DNA of 64,000 nucleotides from an uncultured Actinomycetes bacterium (GCA_963797635.1 CAWCPZ010000003.1:141346-205345), one strand, 5' to 3'. Counted from the first letter of the stretch, positions 1 to 22,976 are shown. A program made the numbers and translations. Notes: generated from the sequence alone by a model not told the origin.

Positions 1-143
1 AGGCCTTCGAGTTCGTTGTCGGACAGGGTCGAGTCGTAGAGCCGTGGGCCGAGCACCTCCACCAGGCGCTCTTGCACCTTGACCCGGACCTCTGACATCC
101 GGTCCTTCTGCTGGCTCTTGGCCAACCTGTCTGCGAGGGACAT
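1..143 (-). CDS. cpaF: CpaF/TadA pilus assembly ATPase, N-terminal fragment (runs off the window)
   Basis: Manual translation MSLADRLAKSQQKDRMSEVRVKVQERLVEVLGPRLYDSTLSD resembles actinobacterial CpaF N-termini. AAGGAGG RBS upstream; lies directly downstream of cpaE. Confidence 0.75.
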   Translation of the reverse strand, partial: MSLADRLAKSQQKDRMSEVRVKVQERLVEVLGPRLYDSTLSDNELEG

Positions 144-170
144 CTGGGGAGCCTCCTTGGGTCTCGTGTG

Positions 171-1389
171 CTAGCTCTTCGCGAACAGACGCTTCTTCTT
201 CTTGGATCGGCCGTCGGGCTCGAGGCCATCTCGTCGCCGGGCGTGCCGGCGAGGAAACGACCCGCGAGCTGACGCACCGCCACCGCCACCTCGGACGAGG
301 GCTCGTCGAGCACGACCGGACGGCCCTTGTTCAACGAGGTCGGCACGAGCCGGCTGGACGGGATCATGGCGTCGACCTGGATCTTCATGACCCGCTCGAC
401 GTCGCTGGCGTCCAGGCCGACCTTGGAGTCGGCGCGGTTCAGCACGACGCGGAACCGCTCGCGCGGCAACCCGATCGTCATCAAGGTGTCGAGGGCCTTG
501 CCCAGGTGCTTGACGCCGACCACGTCGAGGCCGGTGACCAGGCAGATGATGTCGCTGAGGTCGAAGCACACGAGCGCGGAGTCCGAATAGTCGACCGACG
601 CGTCGACCACCACGTGCGGGAAGTCGTTGCGGATCGCGCGGAGGAACTTGCCGATCGACTCTCCGGCGGGCGCCTCGGCCGCCGGGTCGATCGGGGCGCC
701 GAACGCCCACAGGTGGTCGCCCACCTGCTGACCCACGCTGCGGACCTGTTCGTGGGTCGCACCCTCGCCCAGGGCCATGAGGTCGGGGATGCCCGTGGCC
801 GGCTCGGTGCCGAAGTAGGTGAAGACGTCACCCATGTCGAAGTCGAGGTCGACCACGGCCGTGTCCTGACCGGTGATGCTCCGCGATGGCGCAGGCCAGG
901 TTCGTCGTGAGGAAGGTCTTGCCGGCCCCGCCCTTGGACGAGAACACCGACATGATCCGGCCCTTCTGGGACTGGAACCCTTCCGACCGGCGCGACGCTG
1001 ACCGAGCGCAGGTTCGAGGCCCACACGATGGCGCGTTCGACGGCGTCGCGGAGCTCCTCGTTGCCCTGGGTCATGTCCACGACGTCACGGATGCCGGCCC
1101 GCATCGCGGCGGGCAGCAGGCCGTTCCACGTGTGGTCCCGGACCAGCACGATCGCCGTGCCCGGTGCCTGACGGCCCACGAACTCGGCGAGCCCGAGGGC
1201 GTCGGGCTCCTTGACCTCGGGCGACAGCACCAGGACCTCGATCGGGTTGAAGGCGTGGATCAGGAGCTCTTCGGCCGCGGTGGCGGACTGAACCCAGCCC
1301 ACCTCCTCGGGCTCGATCTCCAGCGCACGCGCCAGCTGCTGGCGGAACGACTGAGGGGTACCGACGGCGACGACACTCGGCTCATTCAT
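171..1389 (-). CDS. cpaE: CpaE/TadZ-like protein (receiver-like domain + MinD/ParA-type ATPase), frameshifted
   Basis: Receiver-like N-terminus (LLPAAMRAGIRDVV). After frameshifts (~970, ~880, ~320): deviant Walker A SSKGGAGKT, VDLDFDMGDV, VVLNRADS. Ends KKKKRLFAKS*. Confidence 0.85.
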
Positions 1390-2181
1390 GACTTCTGTCC
1401 CAACACGCGATCGAGGGGGATCACCGAGAAGGGAAGGGGGTGTCCCGCTTCCTCATCCGGTGGGAGCAGGCCGATCCAGATCCGGCCGGTCTCCTGGGCA
1501 TAGACGAGGTTCTGTGCATCCTGCGGCGTGAGGTCGAGGGTCAGGGTGACCGGCTCGTTCGCCGACTGGCTGCTGCCTTCGGCGGTCACGGGGTTGACGA
1601 CCTCCAGGACCCGAACCGCCGGGATCAAGGTGGTGGTGAGGGTCGGGAGCGTGGCGGTCTGCACGTTGGTGGGCGCCTTCGCGATCTGCTGCTGCGGCGT
1701 GCCGCCCGGCAGGAACTCCGGAGACTCGAACGTGGCGTAGACCACGATGGACGAGCCGCGCGTGATCGAGCCGTTCACGGCGGCCTGGTCGTCGACCCGG
1801 ATGGACACCGCGACGTTGCCGTCGCTGATGCCGAGGGAGCCGCCCTGCGGGCGCCTCGCCGCTGGAGAGCCGTCCGACCGGGATCTGCTCGTTCGCCAGG
1901 ATCGGCGCCGTGCTCGTGAGCCCTCGGAGCTGCGAGGGGTCGCTGACGGCGCCGTCGACGACCGCGTCGCTGGGCACCCGGAGCGTGGTGAACGCGCCCT
2001 GGTCGATCAGCGGGTTCAGGTTCGTGTTGGCGGGGATGTCCTGCGAGGCCACGACGACCTCACTCAAGGATCCGCCCGTGACGGCGTCTTCCTTGACCCC
2101 GTTCGTGTACAGGATCACCGCTGCGGACGCCACGATGGCGAGGACCACAGCGATGGCGACCACCAGACCGCGTGACCTCAT
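1386..2181 (-). CDS. cpaB: Flp pilus assembly protein CpaB/RcpC (SAF domain), frameshift ~1850
   Basis: N-terminal TM, SAF motif VVVASQDIPANT, C-terminal VTLTLDLTPQDAQNLVYAQETGRIWIGL. ATGA overlap with cpaE. Confidence 0.88.
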
Positions 2182-2206
2182 CGCCCTTCGCTCCTTTCCA
2201 TGATCT

Positions 2207-3621
2207 TCAGCTCTCCTCGGGGCAGGTACCGAGCTCGAGATCGCACAAGGCGAACGCGCTCACCCCGAAGTCCTCGCCCTCGCCGATGGTTCCACCGGTG
2301 GTCGAGAATCCTCGCCATTCCGTCACCAGACAGATCGCGTTGGGGTCGCTCGGGTGGATCCCGCACGCCCCCGCTGTTCCGTTCATCGACCAGCCGTACG
2401 TAATCTTGAGGTTGGTCGCCGCGGCGGTTCGCCACGTGATCGTTCGTGCGGTGGCGTCGTACCAATAGGCGCACGTCGCCGACAGGTCTCCGGGCGCGCA
2501 CTGCGTGTACTCGGCGCCCTTCTTCGGGAGTGATGTGCACCGACGATGCCGCCACCGAATCCGGCGTGCCGGTCGGGCACCCGCCACCCGTGCCGTAGGA
2601 GGACGACAGGTTCCAGGTCTGGCCCGTGGTGAACGCGCTGATCGTCGGCGTGCAGGTGCCGCTGACGCTCCGGCCGATCCGATGGCGGCCGGGTCGTTGC
2701 CCTTGTAGACCTCGGAGATCAGCAGCTTGGTGAACCCGATGATGTCGTACTTGTCGGGCGTGGACGGGCACGGCGAGACGTTGCCGCTCTTGTCCAGCTG
2801 GCCGTCGCAGTCGTTGACCGGGAAGAGCTTCGTCGTGCCGATCTCGGTCGTGGAGCGTGCTCCAGTTCGACGTGGAGTGGCCGGTGTCGTTGCAGACGTA
2901 GGTGGGCTCGCTCCCCGGAGGGGTTCCGTTGAGGGTCAGCGGATGTCGGGATAGCCGTTGACGATCCAGTCCCGCCGATCCGAGGACCCGGCGTTGTGGC
3001 AGTTGGTGCCGGCGTCGACGTCCCACTGGCTGAGGTTCATGAACCCCCAGTTGGCGGCGCCGAGGCTCGAATCGCCGTTGTTGTACCAGAAGGCGCAGGT
3101 GTCACCGATCTCGATCCCGTCGGGGATCTTGCAGACGCCCTGGAGGTAGCCGGAGTCCAGCACGATCGGCACGGCGTACCCCCCGGCGGCGGGTCCCCAC
3201 GCGGCGGTCGCCGCCGTGCGTCACCGACCCGTGGTCGCCGAACCCGAAGATCCCGGCGAAGAACAGGCTCTGGGGGTGGGAGTACTCGACGGTGACGTGC
3301 CCACGGCCGGTGTCGCAGCCGACGATCTCGGTGATGCCGCCGTTCTCGGCCAGGAGGCCGTCGACGTTGGCCGAGGCGTAGATGTCGGCGCGGCTCTCGG
3401 GCGCGAAGGAGTCGCCGGTGTCGGCGCACGACTGGGCGGCGGCCAGGGCGGCCGCATCGGATGCGTTCACCATGGCGCGTCGCTTGAGGAGCAGGCCGCC
3501 CACATCGACCGTGAGCACGAGCATGCCCATGATGGCGATCAGGGCCAGCACGGTGATCACGACGACCGCGCCCGACTCCTCGTTCGCGCGGGTCCGTGCA
3601 GAGCGCCGACCTAGCGATCAG
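2207..3621 (-). CDS. TadG-like minor pilin/adhesin with Cys-rich C-terminal region, several frameshifts
   Basis: EESGAVVVITVLALIAIMGMLVLTVDVGGLL..NASDAAALAAAQ is the Tad/TadG N-terminus. Later NWGFMNL and YDIIGF motifs. Start approximate. Confidence 0.8.
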
Positions 3622-4074
3622 ACCGGCTCGCACCGGAACGTCCCTTCGATCTGCGGGTTCAAGGTGAACGAGGGCAGCAAGGGGATGTCGATCGAGAAGA
3701 TCTGCTGGATACCGGCCGGCAAGCTCGCGGGATCGATCGACACCGTGACCGACTGGTCGACGGCGGTGGCGTCCCCCGGGTCGGGGCACCCGCCGACGGG
3801 CGTGATCGTGAGACCGGTGTAGCCGGCGGGGAGCGCGCCGGCCGAGGCGCCGACCACGGCGTCGCGGATCTGGGTCTCGTCGCCGCCGACGGCGGCGACG
3901 CGGGCGCCCTCTCGAGCCGACGGCGCGCAGGCTCTGGAGCTGCCAGAAGGCGAGGCCGTACTCCATCATGCCGAAGATCAACATGGCCAGCAGGCCGACG
4001 ATCAACGCGAATTCCACCGCCGCCGCGCCGTCTTCCCGCTGGGCATGACGGCGTAGGTTCGAAGGTCTCTCCAT
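3618..4074 (-). CDS. tadE: TadE family pseudopilin, frameshift ~3915
   Basis: EDGAAAVEFALIVGLLAMLIFGMMEYG prepilin motif; C-terminal half in ORF 3618..3857. Confidence 0.88.
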
Positions 4075-4138
4075 CTTCGTGATACCTCGCTCGCTCGTGC
4101 GCCGGTCCCTCACTCCCTCGGCATGGATCCGGGAGAGT

Positions 4139-4161
4139 GAGCGGCCGGCGTACAGCCGCTC
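4139..4161 (-). terminator. Stem-loop downstream of flp (attenuator or mRNA stabiliser)
   Basis: GAGCGGC..GCCGCTC inverted repeat between the flp stop and tadE. Confidence 0.35.
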
Positions 4162-4180
4162 GTGCTGTAACGTTGCGGCC

Positions 4181-4397
4181 TTAGCTGCAGTCGGCTGGGT
4201 CGCCGACGCAGTCGCCGACCGAGCTGGAACTGCTCGCTGGAGCTCGTGCCGATGAAGGCAACTGCCGCGATGATGACCACCGCGATCAGGGCAACCATCA
4301 GCGCGTACTCCACCGCGGTCGCGCCACCTTCCTCAGCGGCCCGAGCCTTGAGCCCGTCCCACCAAGAGGTCGCGCTCGTGTAGAGACGCAGGAACAT
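4181..4397 (-). CDS. flp: Flp/Fap type IVb major pilin (one-base insertion near 4226)
   Basis: EEGGATAVEYALMVALIAVVIIAAVAFIG Flp motif. Removing one C gives ..SEQFSSVGDCVGDPADCS* with TAA at 4181-4183. RBS upstream. Confidence 0.92.
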
Positions 4398-4533
4398 GTG
4401 CTACACCCCCTTCCTCCGAAAGATCCGTCCTTGCTGGGAGGGTTTTCGACCTCTCAGCTGTGAAGCTTGAGTGCGGACACCACGGTAGATTCCGCGGTCT
4501 GACCAGGGAATTCCGTGTTTCCCGGAGGGTGGC

Positions 4534-4549
4534 TACGTAGTCCTACGTA
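4534..4549. promoter_or_regulatory. Perfect 7-2-7 inverted repeat TACGTAG-TC-CTACGTA, candidate NarL/LuxR-family site
   Basis: Seen directly in the divergent flp / glycosyltransferase intergenic region. Confidence 0.5.
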
Positions 4550-4565
4550 CGCACGTGCGTGGACT

Positions 4566-4592
4566 CCAGCGCCCGGGTTCGCCGGCCGATGG
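4566..4592 (+). promoter_or_regulatory. sigma28/WhiG-like promoter CCAG-N15-GCCGATGG
   Basis: GCCGAT box ends 9 nt before the ATG at 4602. Same architecture as four other sites in the window. Confidence 0.45.
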
Positions 4593-4601
4593 AATCGGGA
4601 G

Positions 4602-6128
4602 ATGGCCCACGCCCTGCGACCCGCCCCGACCCGGCACCGGACCCGGGTCACGAGCACCACGACGACCCGTCCTCGGCGGTGGCCGTCCCCGTGGCCCACG
4701 CTCGACCACGTCTGGGCGGCGCTCCCCGTCGTCATCCCGGTCGTGGTCTCCCTCGCGACCCGCATGGTGGCGATCGACCTCGCCTACCACGTACGCGCCG
4801 GCGAGCAGGTCCTGCGCGGGCGGGATCCCGAGGGCGACACGTGTACGTTCACGAGTGGCCGGAGCGGCCTGGCTGGACCAGCAGTGGCGTGCTCAGGCGC
4901 TGCTGGCATCGGCCCATCGCGTCGGAGGGTTCGCGCGATCGCCGCTGCTCCGAGCTGGGCTGATCGGGCTGACGTTCGCCCTGGTCTACCTGTCGTGCCG
5001 GGCCGAAGGGAGCGAGCCCGCGAGACCTCCTCGTTGCTGTCGCTCGGAGGGTTCGTCGTGTGCCTGCAGGCCCTGGCGATGCGACCGCAGCTCTTCGCGT
5101 TGCTTCCTGTTCGCCGCATCTTGTGGATCCTGGCGGCCCGCCACGCGCATCCCGGGCGGTGTGGGCCCTGCCGGTGCGGAGCGGTCGTGTGGGCCAACGT
5201 GCACGGAAGCTTCTTGCTCGCTCCCCTCTGCTGGTGCGGCCTGGCGCTGGTCGAAGACGTGATCGGAGGACTCCGGGATGGCGAAGGATGGCCCGGTCTC
5301 GCCGTGGGCTGACCGCGATCGCGACCTTGGTCAACCCCTTCGGCGTCGGCGTCTGGGGCTACGTCGTGGAGACCTGCGCACGAACCCGTCATCCGCGACA
5401 CGATCACCGAGTGGGCTCCGATGTCGGTCTCGACGTTCTCGGGGATCGCGTTCTTCCTCACGGCAGCCCTGATCGCGGATGGCTGGCTCGGCGCGAGCGC
5501 GTCCGTCCCGTGGGCCGCGTTGCTCTGGCTCGGAACCTTCTTCGCGCTCGCCTTGCCGGCCCGACGCGGCGTGATCTGGTGGGCGCTCGTGGCGCCGGTG
5601 GTGGTGGCCGGCCTCCTTGACCTTCGAAGCGCACCACGGACGATGCCCACCGGTTCGCGTTGGATGAACATGACGGTCATCGCGCTCCTCGGGGCGACGG
5701 TGCTTGCCTTCCTGCCGTGGTCGAGAGGCTTGCGTTCCACGGACCTGCTCGCAGAGGCGCCGGTGGGACTCACCGCGGCCGCCCGGGAGCAGCTGCCACC
5801 TGGGGCGAACGTGCTCACACCTCAGGCCTGGGGATCGTGGTTCGAGTTCGATGCCCCCGAGCAGCAGGTCTTCCTCGATGCACGGGTCGAGCTGCAGCCG
5901 CAAGCGGCCTGGGACGACTACAACGCGGTCCGAACCGCCCGAGGCGATTGGGGCGCCATCCTCGATCGATGGTCCGTCGATGCGGTCGTGGTGGATGCCC
6001 GCCCCGGCTGGGAGGAGCTGGAAGGTGCGCTGGCCGGGTCATCCGAGTGGTGTCTGGCCACGAGGGACGTGGCGGGGAGCCTGTTCATCCGAGACGACGC
6101 CGTCGACGGTCGCTGCATCGCATCATGA
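4602..6128 (+). CDS. Multi-TM membrane protein, putative GT-C-fold glycosyltransferase, several frameshifts
   Basis: Motifs DLAYHVRAG..D..TFT..WLDQQW, RPQLF, WANVHGSF, LVNPFG, ITEW and a soluble C-terminal domain VFLDARVEL..WDDY..ILDRWSVDAVV. Confidence 0.65.
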
Positions 6129-7385
6129 GTGGCACGGGCAGGTTCCGCCGGGGATCATCGTTGGCCCTCGCGGCCATGATGGGTCTCACGACGCTGACCA
6201 TGGTCCTCGGGGCTGGGCTCAAGTCCCCGTGCGCCGACCGATCGTGGGTCGAAGAACGACGCGGGGCCAGCGGCCAGTGCTACTCCGACATCGCCGATCT
6301 CCTTCGGACCGAGCAATTGGCCGACGGCCGCCTGCCGTATCTCGAACGATGTGACGCGGCGGCGAAGCCATGCGACGAGTATCCGCTCGTCTCGATGTAC
6401 GTGATGCGCTTGACCGCTTCATGGCCGGGAGGCGGCGACCCGTACACGACCTTCTTCTGGGTCAACGTGATACTGCTGCTGGCCTGCGCCCTCGTGATCA
6501 CGTGGTGCCTCGAACGGCTCGGCGCGGCGACCGCGTTGTTCGCGGCCGCTCCCACGCTGCTGATCTACGGGACGATGAACTGGGATCTCGTGCCGGTGGC
6601 GTTCGCAACGGTGGCGACGTTCGCATTCCTCCGGCGGCGCGAGGTCGCGAGCGGCATCCTTCTGGGCATCGGAGCGGCCGCCAAGCTCTACCCGGCGCTG
6701 TTGGTGTTGCCGTTCGCCGCCGATCGCTGGCGGACCGACGAACGCGGCCGAGGGGTGAAGCTGGTGCTCGCTGCCGGCCATCTCCTGGCTCGCCCTCAAC
6801 CTTCCGTTCGCCCTCGCGGCCCCGGAGGGCTGGTTCCATTTCGTCCGGTACCACTCGGAGCGACCGGCGGAGTACGACTCGCTCTGGCGGGTGGCGTGTG
6901 AGAACGGCCTGTGTCTGTCGACCGGCGCCATCAACGTCGCCTCGCTCATCCTGTTCGCGGTCGGGAGCGCGTTCGTGTGGCGCCTCAAGGAACGACGGGA
7001 CCCGGAGGTCCAGGCGTGGACATTCGGATTCGTCCTGGTCGCGATGTTCCTGTTGACGAACAAGGTGTGGTCGCCGCAGTACGCGTTGTGGCTGCTCCCG
7101 TGGTTCGCATTGGTGGCACCCTCGTTCAAGCCGTACCTCGCGTTCCAAGCGGCCGAGGTGCTGGTGTTCGTCGCGAGGTTCTCGTTCTTCCAGCATCTGG
7201 AAGGAGACGGCGGCCTGCCGTACGCAGCGCTTGAGATCGCGGTCGCTGCCCGAGCGTTGGCGCTGGTCTGGTGCCTCGCGGCGTGGGTGCGAGCTGACTA
7301 CTCCGTGGCGCCGACGGTGACGAGGCCGGACTGGGCCGCCAAGCGGATCGCCGCCAAGCGACTGCCGACCCCCAACTTGCCGTAG
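6125..7385 (+). CDS. Glycosyltransferase family 87 (DUF2029-like, polyprenol-phosphate-sugar dependent), frameshift ~6780
   Basis: KSPC..CYSDI..L..LPY..EYP, NWDL, GAAAKLYP, NKVWSPQYALWLLP motifs. ATGA overlap with the upstream gene. Confidence 0.85.
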
Positions 7386-8002
7386 ATCCGCGCGAGGTGG
7401 GTGGTGACGGTGCGCTCCCGCACGCCGAGCCGGGTCGCGATCTCGCGCGCGGTCAAGCCCTCGGCGGCCACGCTGAGGACCTCACGTTCGCGCTCGGTGA
7501 GCTTGATGTCGAAGTCGCGGCGACGCTGGAGGCCCTCGGCGATCTGGCCCACCGAACCCTGGGTCGGAGACGCCAGCACCATCTCGCGATCGGCCGCTCG
7601 CCGCAGGCCCTGCAGGAACTCGACGGGGTCGATGTTCTTGTCCACGAACCCGTCGGCGCCCATGAACAACACCCGGGAGATCGTCGTGGGGTCGGCGTTG
7701 GCGCCGCACCCCAGGATCGCATGGCTGGGGAACCGTTCCCGCATCGTGCGGATCAACCAGAACGCGTCCTGCTCGCCCCCGAGGCCGAGCCCCACCACGA
7801 TCACGACGCGCGAGCGCCGCACCCGGCTGACGATCTCGATGGCCTCGGCGGCGGTGCCGGCTTCGGCCAGCACCTCCATGTCGGGACGGTCGTCGATCAG
7901 CAGGGCGATGCCGGCACGCACGACCGGCAGCGGATCGACGAGCACGACGCCGAGTCGGCGGCGGGCCCGTGCCGCGGTGGGTTCGGGACTCGTTCGGTTC
8001 AC
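7298..8002 (-). CDS. NarL/LuxR-family response regulator, atypical (no phospho-acceptor Asp)
   Basis: HTH LTEREREVL..GLTAREIA..TVTTHLARIYGKLGV. Receiver reads VVIVVGLGL where D is expected. Confidence 0.9.
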   Translation of the reverse strand: MNRTSPEPTAARARRRLGVVLVDPLPVVRAGIALLIDDRPDMEVLAEAGTAAEAIEIVSRVRRSRVVIVVGLGLGGEQDAFWLIRTMRERFPSHAILGCGANADPTTISRVLFMGADGFVDKNIDPVEFLQGLRRAADREMVLASPTQGSVGQIAEGLQRRRDFDIKLTEREREVLSVAAEGLTAREIATRLGVRERTVTTHLARIYGKLGVGSRLAAIRLAAQSGLVTVGATE

Positions 8003-8009
8003 GATGAGG

Positions 8010-8037
8010 CTATCGGCAGGTTGAGGCGAGGTCGTGA
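8010..8037 (-). promoter_or_regulatory. sigma28/WhiG-like promoter TCAC-N16-GCCGATAG (leaderless)
   Basis: -10 box ends 7 nt before the GTG start at 8002; no RBS. Confidence 0.6.
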
Positions 8038-8063
8038 GCGCCTTCTGGCGCGTGCCCGACCGC

Positions 8064-8753
8064 TCAGAGCTCGATCAAGCCGAGCTGGGCGGCGCGTGAA
8101 ACGGCCTGCACCCGCGTGCGGACGCCCAGCTTGCGGTAGAGCTTGGCGACGTGCGTCTCCACCGTGCGTGGCGAGATGCCGAGGCGCGTGCCCACCTGCT
8201 GCATCGTGAACCCGTCGCTCACCATCACCAGGATCTCCTGCTCCCGAGGCGTGAGCGATGCCTCCATCTCGGAGCCTTCGCGGGCCTTCCTGGCGAAGCT
8301 GCCCAGGGCCATGACGGCAGCCTGCTCCAGATCGGGGTCGATCAGGCGCTCGCCGTCGGCGATCCGTCGCACGCAGTCGCCCACCGCGCGCAGTCCGTCG
8401 GCCTTGCCGAGGTAGCCGCGCACGCCGAGCTTCAGCGCGTCGAGCACGGAGGCGCCGTCGGTGCGATCGGTCAGCACGAGCACGCCCGCGGCGACGCCTT
8501 CTTCACGGATCGCGCGGAGCGCCTCGAGGCCGTCGCCGTCGTCGAGTTCGACGTCCAGGACGATCACGTCGGGATGCTCACGGCGGCAGGCCTCGAGCAA
8601 CCCATCGGCGTCGGTGACCTCCGCGACGATCTCGAGACCGCCTTCGGTCATGCACGAACGCCGCACGACCTCGCGGATCACCGGATGCGCCCCGGCGATG
8701 ACGACGCGCGCCGCTGCCGCCTCGTGGTTCGCTCGTGCTCCGTGGCCGGCCAT
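8064..8753 (-). CDS. NarL/LuxR-family response regulator, atypical (acidic metal-binding pair missing)
   Basis: VVIAGAHP in place of VVIADDHP; VIVLD, VLT and GYLGK retained. LuxR HTH LTPREQEIL..TVETHVAKLYRKLGV. Confidence 0.9.
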   Translation of the reverse strand: MAGHGARANHEAAAARVVIAGAHPVIREVVRRSCMTEGGLEIVAEVTDADGLLEACRREHPDVIVLDVELDDGDGLEALRAIREEGVAAGVLVLTDRTDGASVLDALKLGVRGYLGKADGLRAVGDCVRRIADGERLIDPDLEQAAVMALGSFARKAREGSEMEASLTPREQEILVMVSDGFTMQQVGTRLGISPRTVETHVAKLYRKLGVRTRVQAVSRAAQLGLIEL

Positions 8754-8776
8754 CGGACGAAGGCTACCCCGGCCAC

Positions 8777-9433
8777 CTAGGCGGTGCGGGTCGCCGACCC
8801 CAGGCCGTTGCGCCAAGCGAGCCGCACGGCCTCGACCTTCGAGTGCACGCCGAGCTTGGCCAAGATGTTCTTCACGTGGCTCTGCACCGTGAGCGGGCTG
8901 ATCCCCAGCTCGCGCGCGATCTCGGGAGTGGACCGACCGTCGGCGAGCGCTCTCAGGATCTGACGCTCACGTCCGGTGAGCGACGTCCACCCGTCGGCGT
9001 GGTCGCGGTTGCCCATCAGGCGGTCGACCAGCCGGGGAAGGTCGGCGGCCGGCAGGACGAGTTCGCCGGCGACGGCGCGACGGAAGACGTCGATCAGGGA
9101 GCGGTCACGCACCGTGGGCAACACCCCACAGGCTCCTGCCGCCAGCGCCGTGGCCGCGGTCTCGGGTCCGTCCTGGGTGCTGGCCGCCAGGACGCGGATC
9201 CGCCCCGAGCCGTCCCGGATCGAGCCCACGACCTCGGCGCCCCGGCCGTCTTCGCGGTCGAGGTCGACCAGCACGAGGTCGGCGAGGCCCTCTTCCAACG
9301 CCGCGAGGGCCTCGGGGGCGTCGGGCACCGGACCCAGGACATGGATGGGCCCGCGTCGGGGCAGCGCAAGGATCAGTCCCTGCGCGAGCCCCGGGCTCTC
9401 GTCCACCACCAAGACCCGGATGTCCTCGCTCAT
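8777..9433 (-). CDS. NarL/LuxR-family response regulator, atypical (conserved Lys missing)
   Basis: MSEDIRVLVVDES, LVLVD retained; GACGVLPT in place of GA.GYLLK. HTH LTGRERQIL..TVQSHVKNILAKLGV. Confidence 0.9.
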   Translation of the reverse strand: MSEDIRVLVVDESPGLAQGLILALPRRGPIHVLGPVPDAPEALAALEEGLADLVLVDLDREDGRGAEVVGSIRDGSGRIRVLAASTQDGPETAATALAAGACGVLPTVRDRSLIDVFRRAVAGELVLPAADLPRLVDRLMGNRDHADGWTSLTGRERQILRALADGRSTPEIARELGISPLTVQSHVKNILAKLGVHSKVEAVRLAWRNGLGSATRTA

Positions 9434-9441
9434 CTCCGCAC

Positions 9442-9469
9442 CCATCGGCATCGTTGGTGGGTGGCCTGA
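9442..9469 (-). promoter_or_regulatory. sigma28/WhiG-like promoter TCAG-N16-GCCGATGG (leaderless)
   Basis: -10 box ends 8 nt before the ATG at 9433. Confidence 0.55.
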
Positions 9470-9511
9470 AGCAGCCGAGTGCATCTGGGCAGGACGCGAG
9501 ACACTGGAGGC

Positions 9512-11597
9512 ATGAGCGATCGCCCGGCGAACCGGCTCGCGGACCAGACCAGCCCCTACCTCCTGCAGCACGCGCACAACCCGGTGGACTGGTACCCGTG
9601 GGGACCGGACGCGCTGAACGCGGCACGCGAACGCGACGTGCCGATCTTCCTGTCGATCGGCTACGCGGCCTGCCACTGGTGTCACGTGATGGAGCGCGAG
9701 TCGTTCGAGGACGAAGCGACCGCGGCGTTGATGAACACATCCTTCGTCTCGATCAAGGTGGACCGGGAGGAGCGACCCGACCTGGACGGCATCTACATGG
9801 ATGCGGTGCAGGCGATGACGGGTCACGGCGGCTGGCCCATGTCGGCGTTCCTCACGCCCGACGGACGGCCGTTCTACGCGGGCACGTACTACCCACCGGA
9901 GCCGCGTCCCGGGATGCCGTCGTTCCGCCAGGTGCTGACGGGGATCGCCGAAGCATGGGATGAGCGTCGCGACGAGATCGTGGCCCAGGCCGGCAAGGTG
10001 ACGGAGTCGATCGCCAGCGTGGGGTCGCTGGAAGGATCGAACGATCCCTTGACCGGGGAGGTCGCCCGGGAGGCCATGCAGGCCCTGCGGCCCTCGTTCG
10101 ACGGCCGCTGGGGCGGGTTCGGCGGCGCACCGAAGTTCCCGCAGCCGATGACGCTGGAATTCTGCCTGCGGCAGTCGCTGCGCGGCGTGCCCGACGCGCT
10201 GGAGATGGTGGTGATCTCGCTCGACCGGATGGCGGAGGGCGGGATCTACGACCATGTGGGCGGGGGGTTCGCCCGGTACTCCACCGACGGTGCGTGGCAC
10301 GTTCCCCACTTCGAGAAGATGCTCTACGACAACGCCCAGCTCGTGCAGCTGTACACGCGGACCTGGCAGGTCACCGGCGAGGATCGCTACCGCCGCGTGG
10401 CGACCGAGACGGTCGAGTACCTGCTGCGGGAGATGCAGCATCCCGAGGGCGGGTTCTTCTCCTCCCAGGACGCCGACTCCGAAGGCGTCGAGGGCAGGTT
10501 CTTCACGTGGACCTGGGACGAGTTGGTCGACCTGGTCGGCGAGCCGGTGGCGGCGTGCTTCGGCGCCACGGTCGAGGGCAACTGGGCCGGCGAGGAGGGG
10601 CGCACGAACGTGCTGTGGCGTCCGATCGCGATCTCGGCGGTGGCGCGCGAGCACGGACTCGATCCCACGGACCTCGAGGCGATGGTGGAGGACGCGCGCA
10701 CCGTCCTGTTCGAGGCACGGGACGCACGCGTCCACCCCGGCACCGACGACAAGGTGCTCACGGCATGGAACGCGATGGCGATCCGAGCGCTGGCCGAAGC
10801 AGGCCGCGCCTTCGACGAACCCCGCTACATCGAGGCGGCGACGCGCTGCGCGTCGTTCGTGCATGACGCACCTGCGTGACCAGGGCGGACGGCTCCTTCG
10901 CTCGTGGCGGAACGGGGTGGCCGGAGGTCCCGCCTTCTGCGAGGACCATGCGCAGTTCGCGTCGGCGTGCCTCACCCTCTACGAGACCACGCACGACCTC
11001 GCATGGTTCACCGCCGCGCGCGAGACGGCCGATGCGATGCTGCGGCTGTTCGCCGACACGGAACGCGGCGGCTTCTTCGTGACCGGGTCGGACGCCGACC
11101 CGTTGGTGGTTCGTCCCAAGGACCTGCAGGACAACGCGGTGCCCAGCGGCAACTCGGTGGCGGCCGAGGTGCTGCTGCGCCTGTCGCACCTCACCGGTGA
11201 GGTGTCCTACGAGGAGGCGGGCGCGTCGGCGCTCCGCCTGGTGCGCGACGTGATGGGCAGGGTGCCGACAGGGTTCGGCCACGCGTTGTGCGCGCTGGAC
11301 CTGGTCCTCGGGCCCGTCCACGAGGTGGCGATCGTGGGACCGATCGATGCGGCGGCGACGCGCGCGTTGACGCGCGAGGTCACGGTGCGCCGGTATCTGC
11401 CGAACGCGGTGCTCGCGGTGGCCGGACCGGAGGACGACGGCGCGCGCGAAGCGGTCGCGCTGCTCACCGACCGCGAGCCTCGCGACGGTCAGCCGACGGC
11501 GTACGTGTGCGAGCACTTCACCTGCAAGCTGCCCGTCACCGCGCCCGAAGACCTGGCCGCCCAGCTCACGCCCGCCGGTTCCGACGGTCTCGGGTAG
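9512..11597 (+). CDS. YyaL/SPATA20-like thioredoxin-domain protein (DUF255 + alpha/alpha barrel), frameshift ~10865
   Basis: [71 protein letters not shown]. Confidence 0.93.
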
Positions 11598-11785: not shown

Positions 11786-12244
11786 GTGAAGCCTGGAGAT
11801 CCCGCACCCGCGTTCACCCTGAAGGATCAAGCGGGCAACGACGTGTCGCTCTCCGACTTCGCCGGCCGCACGCTCCTCGTCTACTTCTATCCGGCGGCCG
11901 ACACGCCGGGGTGCACCACCCAGTCGTGCGCGGTCCGTGATGCCCGCGAGGACCTCACCTCGCTCGGGGTCGACGTCGTGGGCATCTCCCCGGACGAACC
12001 GGGACCGCAGGCCGCGTTCGACGAGAAGTTCGGCCTCGGGTTCCCGCTCCTGAGCGACCCCGATCACGCGGTGGCCGACGCGTGGGGCACGTGGGGTGAG
12101 AAGTCGATGTACGGCAAGACGTACATGGGCATCATCCGGTCCTCCTTCCTGGTCGACGGCGACGGGAACATCCGGGACGCCTGGTACAAGGTCTCGCCCA
12201 AGGACACCGTGCCGAACGCGATGAAGGCGCTGCAGCAGGCCTGA
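11786..12244 (+). CDS. bcp: Thioredoxin-dependent thiol peroxidase Bcp/PrxQ
   Basis: YFYPAADTPGCTTQSC peroxidatic motif; GEKSMYGKTYMGIIRSSF. Confidence 0.95.
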   Translation: MKPGDPAPAFTLKDQAGNDVSLSDFAGRTLLVYFYPAADTPGCTTQSCAVRDAREDLTSLGVDVVGISPDEPGPQAAFDEKFGLGFPLLSDPDHAVADAWGTWGEKSMYGKTYMGIIRSSFLVDGDGNIRDAWYKVSPKDTVPNAMKALQQA

Positions 12245-12254
12245 TCCGACGCGC

Positions 12255-12302
12255 TTGACGAGGTGCTGGGTAAGCTGTAACTTACCGTAAGTGATGGCTT
12301 AC
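12255..12302 (+). promoter_or_regulatory. sigmaA-type promoter TTGACG-N17-TAACTT overlapped by two tandem GTAAG-N6-CTTAC operators
   Basis: Palindromes at 12270-12285 and 12287-12302 cover the -10 box and the start codon of the ArsR gene. Confidence 0.75.
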
Positions 12303-12638
12303 CCACTTGCCGCCGACCTCGCCCTGGACGCGCTCGGAGATCCCACCCGGCGCCGCGTGATGGAGCTGCTCCGCACCGGGCCACGCGCGGTGGGCGACCT
12401 CGCGGCCGAACTCCCGGTGAGCCGGCCGGCCGTGTCCCAGCACCTTCGCGTGCTGAAGGGCGCGGGACTCGTCACCAGCCGGCCGCACGGCACCCGGCAC
12501 CTCTACTCGATCGACGACGAGGGCCTGGTCGCCATCCGCACCTACCTGGAAACGTTCTGGGACGACGCCCTCGCCGCCTTCAAGGACGCGGCCGAAGGGT
12601 CCCCCGCCACACCATCTGAGGGAGGAGAGCACCCGTGA
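12291..12638 (+). CDS. ArsR/SmtB family transcriptional regulator
   Basis: ALGDPTRRRVMELL..VSRPAVSQHLRVLKGAGLV. Confidence 0.92.
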   Translation: MMAYPLAADLALDALGDPTRRRVMELLRTGPRAVGDLAAELPVSRPAVSQHLRVLKGAGLVTSRPHGTRHLYSIDDEGLVAIRTYLETFWDDALAAFKDAAEGSPATPSEGGEHP

Positions 12639-14870: not shown

Positions 14871-14974
14871 CCGACGGACGAGTCTAGATGCCGTGGTCAC
14901 GGCTCGCGGTTACCGCTCCCCCGGCGGTTCGGTCCATACTGCGGGCTCTCCACGCGCACGGAAGGATCCTCCTC

Positions 14975-15961
14975 ATGAGCGAACGACCGAACATCCTGGT
15001 GACCCGGCCGATCATGGACGGGGCGACGGCGACCCTGCGCGAACGCGCCGACGTCACGATCCACGAGAACGAGTTCGGCATCCCGCGGGACGAGCTCCTC
15101 GAGGTGATCGCCGGCCGCGACGCCATCATCACGATGCTCACCGAGCAGGTCGACGCCGAGTTCCTGGCCGCGGCCGGGCCGAACCTGACGATCGTCGCCA
15201 ACCACGCCGTGGGCTTCGACAACATCGACGTTGCCGCGTGCACCGCCGCCGGCGTGCTGGCCACCAACACGCCCGACGTGCTCACCGAGACCACCGCCGA
15301 CACCGCGTTCGCGCTGCTGATGGCGGCCGCGCGGCGCCTGGGCGAAGGGGAACGCTTCCTGCGCGCGGAGCGGCCCTGGATCTGGGGTCCGCTGATGATG
15401 CTGGGCCAGGACGTGCACCACAAGACGATCGGCATCGTGGGGTTCGGCCGGATCGGGCAGGCGGTGGCCCGGCGCGCGAAGGGCTTCGGGATGGACGTGA
15501 TCTACGCCGACGCGTTCCAGCTCCCCGCCGACGTCGAAGCCGAGACCGGCGCCCGGCGCGTGGAGCTCGAGGCGCTCCTGGAGCAGGCGGACTTCGTCTC
15601 GATCCACACGAACCTCACGGAGGAGACGCGGCATCTGTTCGACGCCGAAGCGTTCAAGCGCATGAAGCCGACCGCCGTGTTGGTCAACACCTCTCGCGGG
15701 CCTGTCGTCAACGAATCGGCGCTCGCCGATGCCCTGGAGTCCGGCGAGATCTTCGGCGCGGGGCTCGACGTGTTCGAGCGTGAGCCCCAGGTCGAACCCC
15801 GTCTGCTGGCGCTGGAGAACGTCGTGGTGATCCCGCACCTGGGCAGTGCCACGGTGGACACCCGGGATGCCATGGGCGCGCTGGCGGTGCAGAACGTGTT
15901 CGCGGCGCTGGACGGCACGCGGCCGCCTACACTGCTGAATCCCGACGCGTTCAAGGAGTGA
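14975..15961 (+). CDS. D-glycerate dehydrogenase / hydroxypyruvate-glyoxylate reductase (GyaR/GhrB type)
   Basis: NHAVGFDNID, NTPDVLTETTAD, GIVGFGRIG, NTSRGPVV, GLDVFEREP, PHLGSAT. Confidence 0.9.
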   Translation: MSERPNILVTRPIMDGATATLRERADVTIHENEFGIPRDELLEVIAGRDAIITMLTEQVDAEFLAAAGPNLTIVANHAVGFDNIDVAACTAAGVLATNTPDVLTETTADTAFALLMAAARRLGEGERFLRAERPWIWGPLMMLGQDVHHKTIGIVGFGRIGQAVARRAKGFGMDVIYADAFQLPADVEAETGARRVELEALLEQADFVSIHTNLTEETRHLFDAEAFKRMKPTAVLVNTSRGPVVNESALADALESGEIFGAGLDVFEREPQVEPRLLALENVVVIPHLGSATVDTRDAMGALAVQNVFAALDGTRPPTLLNPDAFKE

Positions 15962-15968
15962 CGACGGC

Positions 15969-18571: not shown

Positions 18572-18710
18572 ACGGCGGGTCCCTGACCGGCGGTGAGGCG
18601 GCCGGGCTATCGCCGGATCCGGCACCTATGCCATACTCCGGTCTTCCTTTGAACGCCCGTTCAAACTTCGGGCTCTGCCGTTCGCGGGGCCTCGTGAGGG
18701 AGGGACAGAC

Positions 18711-19856: not shown

Positions 19857-19864
19857 GTGCCCTC

Positions 19865-20836: not shown

Positions 20837-20904
20837 ACGACCGGCACGACCGCATCCGGTCGCGCCTGAAGGAAGCCCGCAGCCGGGCGCCGAAGGAGCA
20901 GCAG

Positions 20905-22080: not shown

Positions 22081-22976
22081 GCGTGTTCGTGGACAAGGAC
22101 TCGAAGGTCATCATCCAGGGCTTCACCGGACAGCACGCCACGTTCCACGCCGAAGAGGCGATGTCGTTCGGGACGAAGGTCGTGGGAGGCGTCACCCCCG
22201 GCAAGGGGGGGACCACCCACCTGGGGTTGCCGGTGTTCAACAGCGTGGCCGAGGCGGTCGAGGAGACCGGCGCCGATGTGTCGGGCATCTTCGTGCCGCC
22301 GGCGCTCGCGACGGACTCCCTGCTGGAAGCGGCCGAGGCCGGCGTGGGGGTGGCGGTGATCATCGCCGACGGGGTCCCCGTCCAGGACATGGTCCGCACC
22401 AAGCGCTACCTCGCGGGGCGTTCGACGCGCATCATCGGACCCAACTCCCCCGGCATCATCACGCCTGGCGCGTGCAAGGTGGGCATCATGCCGAGCCACA
22501 TCTACCTGCCGGGGCGCGTGGGCGTGGTGTCGCGAAGCGGCACGCTCAACTACGAGGCCGTCTCGCAGATGACCGCCCGCGGCCTGGGGCAATCGACCTG
22601 CGTGGGCATCGGCGGCGACCCCGTGAACGGCACCGACTTCAAGACCGTCCTGCAGGCCTTCGAGAACGACGACGAGACCGACGTGGTCGTGATGATCGGC
22701 GAGATCGGCGGGCAGCAGGAGGTCGAGGCGGCCGCGTGGGCGGCGCAGTACATGTCGAAGCCGCTCGTGGCCTTCATCGCCGGAGTCTCGGCGCCGCGCG
22801 GCCGGCGCATGGGACACGCGGGCGCGGTGATCGCGGGCGAGTCCGACACCGCGAACGCGAAGCTGGACGCGATCGAGGGCCACGGCCACCGGGTGGTGCG
22901 CAACCCGGCCGACATCGGCGAGACCGTGTTCCGCGCCGTCAAGGAGGCCGGCGACCGGGTGGGCGCCGCGTCGTAG
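22077..22976 (+). CDS. mtkB: Malate-CoA ligase alpha subunit (SucD family)
   Basis: QGFTG, GGVTPGKGG, SRSGTLNYEA, GIGGDP, RMGHAGA phospho-His. ATGA overlap with mtkA. Confidence 0.85.
   Translation: MSVFVDKDSKVIIQGFTGQHATFHAEEAMSFGTKVVGGVTPGKGGTTHLGLPVFNSVAEAVEETGADVSGIFVPPALATDSLLEAAEAGVGVAVIIADGVPVQDMVRTKRYLAGRSTRIIGPNSPGIITPGACKVGIMPSHIYLPGRVGVVSRSGTLNYEAVSQMTARGLGQSTCVGIGGDPVNGTDFKTVLQAFENDDETDVVVMIGEIGGQQEVEAAAWAAQYMSKPLVAFIAGVSAPRGRRMGHAGAVIAGESDTANAKLDAIEGHGHRVVRNPADIGETVFRAVKEAGDRVGAAS

What the first reader, a model, noticed from the sequence alone, without database searches (positions are those of the whole stretch)
7298..9433. Three tandem orphan NarL regulators, each broken at a different receiver position
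Seen: no histidine kinase nearby. Regulator 7298-8002 lacks the phospho-Asp (VVIVVG) and the Thr/Ser, and has DP for DD. Regulator 8064-8753 lacks the acidic pair (IAGAHP) but keeps D, T and K. Regulator 8777-9433 keeps DE, D and S but lacks the Lys (GVLPT). All three HTHs look intact, and two genes have WhiG-like promoters. Known: Streptomyces BldM and WhiI are atypical NarL regulators that act without phosphorylation as homo- and heterodimers. Inference: a three-protein combinatorial dimer code downstream of a sigma28 factor, possibly controlling the adjacent Tad locus.
Basis: partly seen in the sequence, partly recalled or inferred. Interest (0 to 1): 0.75.

Follow-up and report, generated by a model that had tools for sequence, protein, structure and literature searches.

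The report
Three kinase-less regulators beside pilus genes
Three neighbouring response-regulator genes have each lost a different part of the phosphate-accepting site, and they most likely switch on adjacent Flp/Tad pilus genes without a sensor kinase, under a WhiG-type sigma factor.

Summary
Genes C (8777-9433), B (8064-8753) and A (7298-8002), all on the minus strand, encode receiver + GerE/LuxR-HTH proteins. No histidine kinase lies in the window.

- **Trio conservation:** all 22 genus relatives fetched carry C-B-A. The A-B pair is found in other families of the order.
- **Promoters:** [CT]TCA-N17-GCCGAT[AG]G precedes A in 23 of 23 genus genomes. TTCA-N16/17-GCCGATG precedes C in 15 of 15. 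The genome encodes a WhiG equivalog and no FlhA was found.
- **Target:** downstream on the same strand lies a complete flp-tadE-cpaB-tadZ-tadA-tadB-tadC locus. The flp upstream region holds a 7-2-7 palindrome, TACGTAG-GA-CTACGTA, that occurs once in the 3-Mb genome. It sits beside A/flp in 21 of 41 relatives. The same region has a relaxed WhiG-like motif.

Best reading: a phosphorylation-independent WhiG-to-regulators-to-Flp-pilus cascade. The heterodimer code remains untested; complex prediction gave only weak support, and the palindrome suggests a homodimer. This is a new variant of the BldM/WhiI theme. This scan found the same trio earlier in another genome (e1-1495927).

The parts
8777..9433 (-). 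Gene C: atypical NarL/GerE-type response regulator, 218 aa. Keeps D11-E12, D57 and S85 but has no pocket Lys (GVLPT).
   Evidence: Pfam; alignment to NarL and VraR; orthologue columns (no Lys in 21 of 21 rows); orthologues only in family f1.
9442..9470 (-). P_C: WhiG/sigma-28-type promoter motif TTCA-N17-GCCGATGG. It ends 8 nt before the C start codon, which implies a leaderless or very short leader.
   Evidence: Sequence. TTCA-N16/17-GCCGATG is present in 15 of 15 genus genomes that had at least 45 nt of upstream sequence. Consensus taken from preprint 10.64898/2026.01.14.699351.
8064..8753 (-). Gene B: atypical NarL/GerE-type response regulator, 229 aa. The acidic pair is replaced by G21-A22; D67, T95 and K117 are kept. 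It starts 23 nt after the C stop and has no promoter motif of its own, so it is probably co-transcribed with C.
   Evidence: Pfam; alignment; columns; sequence. An RNA-library contig spans 8623-8797, which does not prove a single transcript.
8010..8038 (-). P_A: WhiG/sigma-28-type promoter motif CTCA-N17-GCCGATAG. It ends 7 nt before the GTG start of A.
   Evidence: [CT]TCA-N17-GCCGAT[AG]G is present in 23 of 23 genus genomes, with a spacer of 17 in every one.
7298..8002 (-). Gene A: pseudo-receiver NarL/GerE-type regulator, 234 aa. It has D23-P24, G71 at the phospho-acceptor position, C99 at the Thr/Ser position, and K122 kept. It is the most conserved of the three.
   Evidence: Pfam; alignment; columns; 76-100% identity across the genus and 51-67% in six genomes of other families; dN/dS is 0.145 for the receiver and 0.089 for the HTH.
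4534..4549 (.). Candidate operator 1: perfect 7-2-7 inverted repeat TACGTAG-GA-CTACGTA in the flp upstream region.
   Evidence: It is the only TACGTA-N4-TACGTA in the 2,995,007-base genome. The exact pattern occurs in 21 of 41 relatives, once in 18 and twice in 3; the reversed-pattern control hits 2 of 41 genomes. One-mismatch variants occur in G006, G022, G026 and G035.
4506..4523 (-). Candidate operator 2: GGGAAAcacGGAATTCCC, a conserved GGAA-type repeat or palindrome.
   Evidence: Footprint alignment of 14 loci. Variants in other genera and families.
4443..4471 (-). Relaxed WhiG-like motif CTCA-N17-GTCGAAAA, 46 nt upstream of the flp ATG. It is a candidate flp promoter. A sigma-70-like -10 element, TACCGT at 4482-4487, is an alternative.
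   Evidence: CTCA-N17/18-G[TC]CGA[AC]AA is present in 13 of 13 genus genomes of the alignment, at two different positions (10 genomes and 3 genomes). The relaxed motif occurs about once per 20.6 kb per strand in this genome.
4110..4397 (-). flp: Flp/Fap prepilin. Only the first 58 residues are conserved in relatives.
   Evidence: Pfam Flp_Fap 36.7 bits, cut-off 32.2; translation; relatives.
3037..4113 (-). TadE-like pseudopilin gene.
   Evidence: Pfam TadE 36.2 bits, cut-off 22.9.
1453..2181 (-). CpaB/RcpC-like gene with a SAF domain.
   Evidence: Pfam SAF. The NCBIfam pilus_cpaB match is weak: 31.5 bits, below the cut-off of 71.
2..877 (-). MinD/ParA-type ATPase, a TadZ/CpaE-like candidate, running off the window. 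tadA, tadB and tadC follow just outside the window at C3:138277-141242.
   Evidence: NCBIfam MinD and CpaE_hom_Actino matches are weak and below their cut-offs. The conserved part is q50-341.

Best explanation
C, B and A are orphan, atypical (phosphorylation-independent) NarL/GerE-family transcription factors. Together they form the regulatory head of a Flp/Tad pilus locus in an uncultured soil or rhizosphere actinobacterial lineage.

Shown:
- All three keep an intact GerE HTH and a folded receiver.
- Each has lost at least one residue essential for phosphotransfer or for the phospho-switch.
- No kinase is nearby.
- The genes are under purifying selection.
- Two transcription units (C-B, and A) carry conserved WhiG-type promoter motifs.
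- The genome has one WhiG sigma factor, and no flagellar export gene was found.
- The regulators are syntenic with flp-tad across families.
- The flp upstream region holds a genome-unique 7-2-7 palindrome, a second conserved GGAA-repeat block and a relaxed WhiG-like motif.

Inferred:
- When WhiG is active it transcribes C-B and A, so the amount of regulator, not phosphorylation, is the signal.
- A, the most conserved protein and the one co-distributed with the palindrome, binds the 7-2-7 site as a dimer.
- B and/or C bind the second block or modulate A.
- Together with WhiG holoenzyme they turn on flp-tad, giving a coherent feed-forward loop.
For: - **Domains and pocket residues:**
- **Trio conservation:** the order C-B-A is found in 22 of 22 genus relatives fetched. 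It is also found in 4 of 6 genomes from other genera of the family that were examined. One of the remaining two has the trio without Tad hits nearby, and the other has C-B only.
- **A-B pair:** A and B are adjacent in 5 of 6 other-family genomes that have A.
- **Selection:** median dN/dS is 0.145 and 0.089 for A (receiver, HTH), 0.41 and 0.155 for B, and 0.31 and 0.22 for C.
- **No kinase:**. In five other-family genomes a HisKA_3 hit lies on the A/B contig only in G036, about 6.4 kb away.
- **Promoters:** 23 of 23 for A and 15 of 15 for C. They match the published WhiG consensus: -35 T(A/C)AA or CTCA, N16-17, -10 GCCGATAA or GCCGAACT (preprint 10.64898/2026.01.14.699351, section 8).
- **WhiG:** NF004935 scores 349.1 bits and 350.6 bits against a cut-off of 343. 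It is present in 38 of 41 relatives, 35 of them above the cut-off. No FHIPEP was found.
- **Synteny with flp/tad:**. The locus is completed by tadA, tadB and tadC just outside the window.
- **Operator:** one site in the genome. Among the relatives the exact site is in 21 of 29 genomes that have a full A orthologue and in 0 of 12 without one (kin are not independent).
- **Footprint alignment:**
- **flp WhiG-like motif:** 13 of 13.
- **RNA:** short contigs from four rhizosphere metatranscriptome runs of one study cover parts of A, B, C and the flp leader at 95-100% identity. This is weak evidence, because contigs cannot show strand or start and DNA carry-over is possible.
- **Precedents:** WhiI is an orphan ARR lacking the Lys and one Asp and is transcribed from a WhiG promoter. 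BldM binds a 16-bp palindrome (PMC4125116, passages). WhiG targets type IV pilus genes in Rubrobacter (preprint introduction).
Against: - No binding, transcription start or phosphorylation data exist; all function is inferred.
- B keeps D, T and K, and C keeps DE, D and S in this genome, so residual phosphorylation is not formally excluded.
- In this genome about 2.9 kb of plus-strand genes separate A from flp.
- In the other families examined, the B-A spacer shows no GCCGAT motif, and a pattern scan of the larger other-family loci found no WhiG-type motif next to A or B. The WhiG link is therefore shown only for the trio-bearing family: the window's genus plus four genomes of three other genera.
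- GCCGATA alone is not enriched in the window: 3 found, 4.1 expected.
- The flp WhiG-like motif is relaxed (GTCGA), and an alternative sigma-70-like -10 exists.
- G036 has A-B with no Tad genes within the 15 kb examined.
- G178 has the trio with no Tad hit in 4.6 kb downstream.
- Which protein binds which site is a guess.
Confidence: 0.6

Rival explanations
1. One reading: the three proteins form a combinatorial code of homo- and heterodimers (up to six pairings), each pairing with its own DNA specificity, as BldM-WhiI do.
For: - Three paralogues only 28-31% identical to one another are kept together.
- The residues at the start of the recognition helices differ (TT in A, ET in B, QS in C; sequences). 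Which positions contact bases is recalled from NarL, not tested.
- Two distinct conserved DNA blocks lie upstream of flp.
- Folding A+B gave 'weak support': score 0.35, best of 3 controls 0.00. That mark was reached by 58 of 80 solved complexes and 2 of 110 mismatched pairs. At 0.60 or under, however, it was reached by only 7 of those 80 and by both mismatches that passed. The runs agree in at least 95% of contacts, and the partner's pLDDT is at least 84. NarL-family dimers are solved, so this pass may reflect likeness only.
- The BldM-WhiI precedent (PMC4125116).
Against: - Only one of the six pairings was folded.
- The controls were unrelated proteins, not other response regulators, so specificity is untested.
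- The clearest operator is a perfect palindrome, the signature of a homodimer. BldM-WhiI heterodimer sites are non-palindromic.
- C exists in only one family while A, B, the palindrome and block 2 are older, so the system works without C elsewhere.
- G027 has A without an adjacent B.
Confidence: 0.2
2. B and/or C are still phosphorylated, by a distant orphan kinase or by acetyl phosphate. In that case the set is a branched two-component pathway rather than a kinase-free one.
For: - B keeps D67, T95 and K117, and C keeps D11-E12, D57 and S85.
- The Asp is kept in 23 of 24 B rows and 18 of 21 C rows.
- B orthologues in G035 and G040 have a complete canonical pocket.
- The genome has 15 HisKA_3 matches elsewhere.
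Against: - B lacks both Mg-binding acidic residues in all 19 rows from this genus, and its Thr/Ser position is Ala in 5 of 24 rows.
- C lacks the switch Lys in 21 of 21 rows, its acidic pair is variable, and its Asp is A, Q or E in 3 rows.
- Receiver dN/dS is relaxed, at 0.41 and 0.31, compared with the HTH.
- No kinase is linked in any of the loci examined.
- A has no Asp at all.
Confidence: 0.12
3. Only A is the pilus regulator. B and C are neighbours with other targets, or are decaying relics.
For: - A is by far the most conserved (mean column identity 78%, against 62% for B and 71% for C).
- A lies next to the operator in relatives.
- A has its own promoter.
- G229 has C-B without A nearby.
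- G027 has A without B.
Against: - B and C are intact in all 22 genus relatives, apart from one split B in G003.
- Their HTH dN/dS values are 0.155 and 0.22.
- C has its own conserved WhiG-type promoter.
- A-B adjacency is order-wide.
- A second conserved block beside the palindrome needs a reader.
Confidence: 0.2
4. The substitutions are assembly or read errors in a long-read metagenome-assembled genome.
For: This assembly does contain probable single-base frame breaks: PEP carboxylase is split, tadB is split, and there are frame changes across 5313-7385.
Against: The same residues recur in more than 20 independent assemblies. The defects are substitutions in open frames, not indels.
Confidence: 0.01

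Closest known systems
BldM and WhiI of Streptomyces (orphan atypical NarL/FixJ response regulators)
   Same: Both are orphan. WhiI has a degenerate pocket, lacking the conserved Lys and one Asp of the pair, and C likewise lacks the Lys. whiI is transcribed from a single WhiG promoter, and A and C carry WhiG-type motifs. BldM binds a 16-bp palindrome (6-4-6), and the flp site is a 16-bp palindrome. The Streptomyces pair acts without phosphorylation (PMC4125116, passages read).
   Different: Here there are three genes in tandem rather than two unlinked ones. The likely target is a Flp/Tad pilus operon, not sporulation genes. No heterodimer is shown. Orthology is not supported: strong matches to B (45% identity or more) and to C (E<=1e-32) are confined to one family in a 201-genome phylum sample, apart from a single 40% hit to C. 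No BldM or WhiI sequence was available for direct alignment.
WhiG-RsiG control of type IV pilus genes in Rubrobacter radiotolerans, and predicted WhiG regulons across Actinomycetota (preprint 10.64898/2026.01.14.699351)
   Same: A non-flagellar WhiG-type sigma factor is linked to pilus genes in a non-sporulating actinobacterium. The preprint predicts response regulators and type IV pilus genes as frequent WhiG targets (abstract, section 8 and passages read).
   Different: Here the strongest WhiG motifs sit in front of the regulators, and flp has only a relaxed motif plus two operators. The pilus is a Tad/Flp (type IVc) system. The preprint names other families (Cellulomonadaceae, Rubrobacteraceae and others). 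Its supplementary tables could not be read, so I cannot say whether this lineage was covered. RsiG was not searched for here.
PprA-PprB of Pseudomonas aeruginosa
   Same: A response regulator that controls type IVb (Flp) pili. This comes from abstract starts in the search listing only. That it is encoded beside the tad locus is recalled.
   Different: PprB has a cognate kinase, PprA, and a working two-component logic. It is proteobacterial. Its family and operator were not compared here.
NarL of Escherichia coli
   Same: It is the best or near-best solved match of all three (E 8.5e-21, 4.9e-21 and 7.1e-23), with the same receiver + GerE architecture. The 7-2-7 inverted-heptamer geometry of the flp site is the arrangement I recall for high-affinity NarL sites; this is recall, not a test.
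   Different: NarL has a complete pocket and cognate kinases. All three proteins score far below the NarL equivalog cut-off (87.5, 114 and 101.1 bits against 250).

Membership tests
NarL/FixJ (LuxR-type) response regulator architecture | N-terminal receiver domain (PF00072) plus C-terminal GerE/LuxR HTH (PF00196) | tested here: met
   All three proteins score above both curated cut-offs. A's receiver passes only just, at 34.1 against 30.2.
Canonical (phosphorylatable) response regulator | Phospho-acceptor Asp at the end of beta-3 | tested here: not met
   A has G71; across the alignment 23 of 24 rows have G and 1 has S. B (D67) and C (D57) keep the Asp.
Canonical (phosphorylatable) response regulator | Acidic pair that binds Mg2+ | tested here: not met
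   B has G21-A22, and the pair is incomplete in all 19 rows from this genus. A has D-P. C has D-E here but the pair is variable in orthologues.
Canonical (phosphorylatable) response regulator | Conserved Thr/Ser and Lys of the switch | tested here: not met
   A has C99 at the Thr/Ser position. C has no Lys in 21 of 21 rows. B keeps T95 and K117 here, but the Thr/Ser position is Ala in 5 of 24 rows.
Canonical (phosphorylatable) response regulator | Cognate histidine kinase encoded beside it | tested here: not met
   No HisKA_3 on contig C3 and no HATPase_c in the window. None is adjacent in five other-family genomes.
Atypical response regulators (ARRs) | Receiver fold kept but essential pocket residues missing; orphan | tested here: met
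   In the A+B fold the pLDDT was 83-84 for both chains.
ARRs: phosphorylation-independent activity | Activity does not need phosphorylation (shown for BldM by D54A) | not testable with these tools
   This needs biochemistry or genetics.
WhiI orthologue | Sequence orthology to Streptomyces WhiI | tested here: inconclusive
   No WhiI sequence could be obtained from any tool. C matches at E<=1e-32 only within family f1 (9 of 9) plus 1 of 191 other phylum genomes. No WhiI model appears in the top 25 NCBIfam hits.
WhiI orthologue | Lacks the Lys and one Asp of the pair; WhiG-dependent promoter | tested here: inconclusive
   C lacks the Lys and has a conserved WhiG-type motif. In this genome it keeps both acidic residues. 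Promoter use is not tested.
BldM orthologue | Sequence orthology to BldM | tested here: inconclusive
   No BldM sequence was available. B matches at 45% identity or more only in family f1. An 8.5-Mb genome in the sample gave no hit at E<=1e-30.
WhiG (sigma-28) regulon member | Promoter with -35 T(A/C)AA or CTCA, a 16-17 nt spacer and -10 GCCGA(TAA/ACT), within 200 bp of the start codon | tested here: met
   P_A is CTCA-N17-GCCGATAG. P_C is TTCA-N17-GCCGATGG, whose -35 departs by one base from CTCA.; criteria.
WhiG (sigma-28) regulon member | Transcription depends on WhiG | not testable with these tools
   The RNA contigs cannot show starts or strand.
Tad/Flp pilus locus | Flp prepilin, TadE-like pseudopilin, CpaB, TadZ/CpaE ATPase, TadA ATPase, TadB/TadC | tested here: met
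   Flp_Fap and TadE score above their cut-offs, and SAF also matches. T2SSE is at C3:140415-141242 and T2SSF at 138277-139668. The CpaB and TadZ assignments rest on weak, below-cut-off NCBIfam matches. A prepilin peptidase was not sought.

The most novel reading that the evidence does not exclude
The locus is a kinase-free signalling module built from two-component parts. A WhiG sigma factor, possibly gated by c-di-GMP through RsiG, drives three pseudo-receiver NarL proteins. These act as a small set of homo- and heterodimers on two different operators and, with WhiG itself, form a feed-forward gate for Flp-pilus production. The strongly constrained pseudo-receiver of A (dN/dS 0.145 with no Asp) has been re-used as a sensor of a ligand or partner protein rather than of phosphate.
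Probability: 0.15. Interest if true: 0.75.

Novelty: new variant of a known kind. Interest (0 to 1): 0.55.

Why it matters
- **A clean model system.** Tad/Flp pili drive adhesion and surface colonisation. How Gram-positive soil and rhizosphere actinobacteria switch them on is poorly known. This lineage is abundant in metagenomes: one search found 2,719 hits among the 8,000 scored candidates, and the best 120 are at least 74% identical. The module offers a compact, testable cascade of one sigma factor, three small regulators and what looks like a one-operator regulon.

- **A snapshot of how receivers lose phosphorylation.** A has no Asp across the order. B is canonical in two families and has lost its acidic pair in another. 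C was added in one family without the Lys.

- **An extension of the WhiG-to-atypical-regulator logic.** The logic known from Streptomyces sporulation would extend to pili in unicellular, uncultured Actinomycetota.

Tried and rejected
- **Sigma-70 scan of 4000-10000:** 0 sites.
- **Rfam scan of the flp leader (4300-4800):** no match at E<=1. The hairpin-like GAAGGGGTCGAAAACCCCTTC seen in relatives is not kept as a stem in this genome.
- **GCCGATA count in the window:** 3 found, 4.1 expected. The motif alone is no evidence; only its conservation and position are.
- **A genome-wide [CT]TCA-N16/17-GCCGAT[AG] scan:** 31 hits, mostly inside coding sequence, so no regulon was defined.
- **The idea that C co-varies with the GGAATTCC block:** rejected. 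Block-2 variants exist in families that lack C, and the exact octamer is missing in two genera that have C.
- **Naming by homologues:** the best 120 hits carry only generic names. The NCBIfam top-25 lists have no BldM or WhiI model.
- **The search of earlier findings by sequence:** nothing.
- **RNA cover:** stretches of 4000-7300 without contigs in the four runs are not evidence of silence. Contig depths cannot rank genes.
- **Not tried:** a phylum-wide search with A, a search for RsiG, structure prediction of single proteins, and a look at the second palindrome copies in G012, G016 and G021.

Full report
**1. What is there**

The window is about 70% G+C. Genes were placed by third-position G+C. 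Three minus-strand genes lie head to tail:
- C: 8777-9433, 218 aa.
- B: 8064-8753, 229 aa.
- A: 7298-8002, 234 aa.

The long ORF that contains C (to 10975) is the antisense of a plus-strand DUF255 thioredoxin-like gene at 9479-10879. All three proteins match Pfam Response_reg and GerE above the curated cut-offs, with full-length GerE matches. NarL, VraR and DevR are their best solved relatives. All three score far below every NCBIfam equivalog cut-off. They are only 28-31% identical to one another, so they are not a recent tandem duplication.

**2. The pocket defects are real and conserved**

- A has D23-P24, G71 in place of the phospho-Asp, C99 in place of Thr/Ser, and keeps K122.
- B has G21-A22 in place of the acidic pair and keeps D67, T95 and K117.
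- C keeps D11-E12, D57 and S85 but has no Lys (GVLPT).

I aligned orthologues taken from relatives' genomes (alignments A1-A3; column counts).

| Protein | Rows | Acidic pair | Phospho-site | Thr/Ser | Lys |
|---|---|---|---|---|---|
| A | 24 | 2nd position P 19, A 3, S 1 | G 23, S 1 | C 21 | K 23 |
| B | 24 | incomplete in all 19 rows of this genus | D 23, H 1 | T 13, S 6, A 5 | K 21 |
| C | 21 | variable | D 18; A, Q, E 1 each | S 16, T 3 | none in any row |

- The B orthologues of G035 and G040, which belong to other families, have DD, D, T and K.
- In C the preceding Pro (P106) is invariant.

Median pairwise dN/dS (Nei-Gojobori, 18 genomes, about 150 pairs each):

| Protein | Receiver | HTH |
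|---|---|---|
| A | 0.145 | 0.089 |
| B | 0.41 | 0.155 |
| C | 0.31 | 0.22 |

All three are under purifying selection. A's Asp-less receiver is tightly constrained, and the receivers of B and C are relaxed.

**3. Orphan status**

- HisKA_3 has 15 matches in the 2,995,007-base genome (92.7% complete), none on contig C3.
- HATPase_c has 35 matches, none inside the window. The nearest is about 23 kb from A.
- In five genomes of other families a HisKA_3 hit shares the A/B contig only in G036, about 6.4 kb away.

**4. Distribution**

- A full A orthologue (76-100% identity) is in 22 of 24 genus relatives. It is split in two frames in G009 and G017. It is at 51-67% identity in 6 of 16 genomes of other families of the order.
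- All 22 genus loci show the order C-B-A.
- A and B are adjacent in 5 of the 6 other-family genomes that have A.
- In a 201-genome sample of the phylum, C matches at E<=1e-32 in 9 of 9 other genomes of the family and in 1 of 191 outside it.
- B matches at 45% identity or more only within the family.
- So A-B is old, and C was added in one family.
- These tallies include unpublished genomes: G020, G029 and G037; G029, G041, G058, G087 and G182; G182. The single outside-family C-like hit is in G182.

**5. WhiG-type promoters**

- The B-A spacer varies freely between relatives except for [CT]TCA-N17-GCCGAT[AG]G. That motif is present in 23 of 23 genus genomes, always with a 17-nt spacer. In this genome it is CTCA-N17-GCCGATAG at 8010-8038, ending 7 nt before the GTG start.
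- Upstream of C, TTCA-N16/17-GCCGATG is present in 15 of 15 genus genomes with enough sequence. It ends 6-9 nt before the start codon. Here it lies at 9442-9470.
- Both motifs also occur in G191, G054 and G204, which belong to two other genera of the family; G069, of a third genus, has only the A motif.
- B starts 23 nt after the C stop and has no such motif.
- The published consensus is -35 T(A/C)AA or CTCA, N16-17, -10 GCCGATAA or GCCGAACT (preprint 10.64898/2026.01.14.699351; abstract, section 8 and passages read).
- The genome has one WhiG (NF004935 equivalog, 349.1 bits and 350.6, cut-off 343). It lies between xerC and an M23 peptidase gene.
- No FHIPEP/FlhA was found.
- WhiG is present in 38 of 41 relatives.
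- In the other families examined, the B-A spacer shows no GCCGAT motif, and a pattern scan of the larger other-family loci found no WhiG-type motif next to A or B.

**6. The target**

Downstream of A on the same strand lie:
- flp, 4110-4397 (Flp_Fap above its cut-off).
- A TadE-like gene, 3037-4113.
- An unassigned gene, 2178-3026.
- A SAF/CpaB-like gene, 1453-2181.
- After a short plus-strand gene, a MinD/ParA-type ATPase, 2 to about 877.
- Just outside the window, tadA, tadB (split) and tadC.

In G008, G019, G021 and G022, A stops about 230 nt before flp. In this genome and some others, plus-strand GT87-like genes (4515-7385) lie between them.

The same order, A followed by flp and tad genes, holds in:
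- 6 of 6 genus loci.
- G026, G035 and G040 of other families, but not G036.
- G191, G069 and G054 of other genera.

**7. cis elements of flp**

A footprint alignment of 14 loci shows four conserved blocks:
- (i) The perfect 7-2-7 inverted repeat TACGTAG-GA-CTACGTA (4534-4549).
- (ii) GGGAAAcacGGAATTCCC (4506-4523).
- (iii) A -10-like TACCGT (4482-4487).
- (iv) CTCA-N17-GTCGAAAA (4443-4471), which meets the preprint's relaxed WhiG criteria.

Block (iv) is present as CTCA-N17/18-G[TC]CGA[AC]AA in 13 of 13 genus genomes. It sits at two different positions, in 10 and in 3 genomes. The relaxed motif occurs about once per 20.6 kb per strand.

Block (i) is the only TACGTA-N4-TACGTA in the whole genome. 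From base composition I estimate about 0.01 expected. The exact pattern occurs in 21 of 41 relatives, once in 18 and twice in 3, while the reversed control hits 2 genomes. In every genome with the pattern, one copy lies on the contig that carries A. It is present in 21 of 29 genomes that have a full A orthologue and in 0 of 12 without one (kin are not independent). One-mismatch variants occur in G006, G022, G026 and G035.

Block (ii) variants exist in families without C. My idea that C reads block (ii) was therefore dropped.

**8. Expression and pairing**

- Four rhizosphere metatranscriptome runs of one study hold short contigs at 95-100% identity over parts of A, B, C and the flp leader. Contigs cannot show strand, starts or level, and DNA carry-over is possible.
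- Folding A with B, using my own alignments, gave weak support:
  - Score 0.35, best of three controls 0.00.
  - That mark was reached by 58 of 80 solved complexes and 2 of 110 mismatches.
  - At 0.60 or under it was reached by only 7 of those 80 and by both passing mismatches.
  - The runs agree in at least 95% of contacts, and the partner's pLDDT is at least 84.
- Related dimers are solved, so this shows likeness at most.

**9. Reading**

The best-supported mechanism is a phosphorylation-independent cascade:
- WhiG transcribes C-B and A.
- The regulators, with A on the palindrome, act on the flp-tad promoter together with WhiG.

The domains, defects, conservation, motifs, synteny and the uniqueness of the site are shown. 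Binding, activation, and who binds what are inferred.

The system works like BldM/WhiI (PMC4125116, passages) and like WhiG-controlled pili in Rubrobacter (preprint introduction). Membership in the BldM or WhiI orthogroups could not be tested.

Full-text searches found no paper describing this trio.

This scan reported the same trio earlier in another genome (e1-1495927). My results agree with that report. What I derived here are the two conserved WhiG-type promoters, the genome-unique operator, the flp motif, the selection figures and the stepwise history of A, B and C.

Noticed in passing
window 14888-22976 (+): A cluster resembling serine-cycle and glyoxylate-assimilation genes in an actinobacterial genome. 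In order it holds a 2-hydroxyacid dehydrogenase, PEP carboxylase, a class-V aminotransferase, an HpcH/malyl-CoA-lyase-like aldolase, and two succinyl-CoA-ligase or malate-thiokinase-like subunits.
   Followed up: no
window 15969-18131 and 17924-18571 (+): PEP carboxylase is split over two overlapping frames (Pfam positions 1-427 and 692-919).
   Followed up: partly
window 4515-7385 (+): GT87-like membrane glycosyltransferase genes change frame twice (5313-6128, 5660-6901, 6759-7385) and overlap the 3' end of A by 88 nt. In some relatives (G008, G019, G021, G022) these genes are absent from between A and flp.
   Followed up: partly
window 4110-4223 (-): The last 37 residues of the flp ORF (after ...SSSEQFQ) are Arg- and Pro-rich and are not conserved in relatives. 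This may be a frame error or read-through at the 3' end of flp.
   Followed up: no
G000 C7:231654 (+), C10:611228 (+), C11:273890 (+): Further WhiG-type motifs in the genome. One precedes another NarL-type regulator with an intact DD (CTCA-N16-GCCGATA). One precedes a CheY-like receiver. One precedes a small Cys-rich protein.
   Followed up: no
G012 C8:959414, G016 C1:262577, G021 C1:1947791: Three relatives have a second TACGTA-N4-TACGTA copy elsewhere, each with a central (G/T)CGC (TACGTAGCGCTACGTA in two, TACGTATCGCTACGTA in one). This may mark a second target of the same regulator.
   Followed up: no
G000 C8:14200-16759 and C11:386635-390194: The genome has a second Tad-like ATPase/TadBC set and a PilB/PilT/PilC-type type IVa pilus cluster.
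   Followed up: no
window 23889-25007 (-): A DUF222 + HNH endonuclease gene, of a type I recall as common in actinobacterial genomes.
   Followed up: no
L034 (G003) 12120-12520; L037 (G040); L038 (G035): Some relatives carry two tandem flp genes after the palindrome.
   Followed up: no
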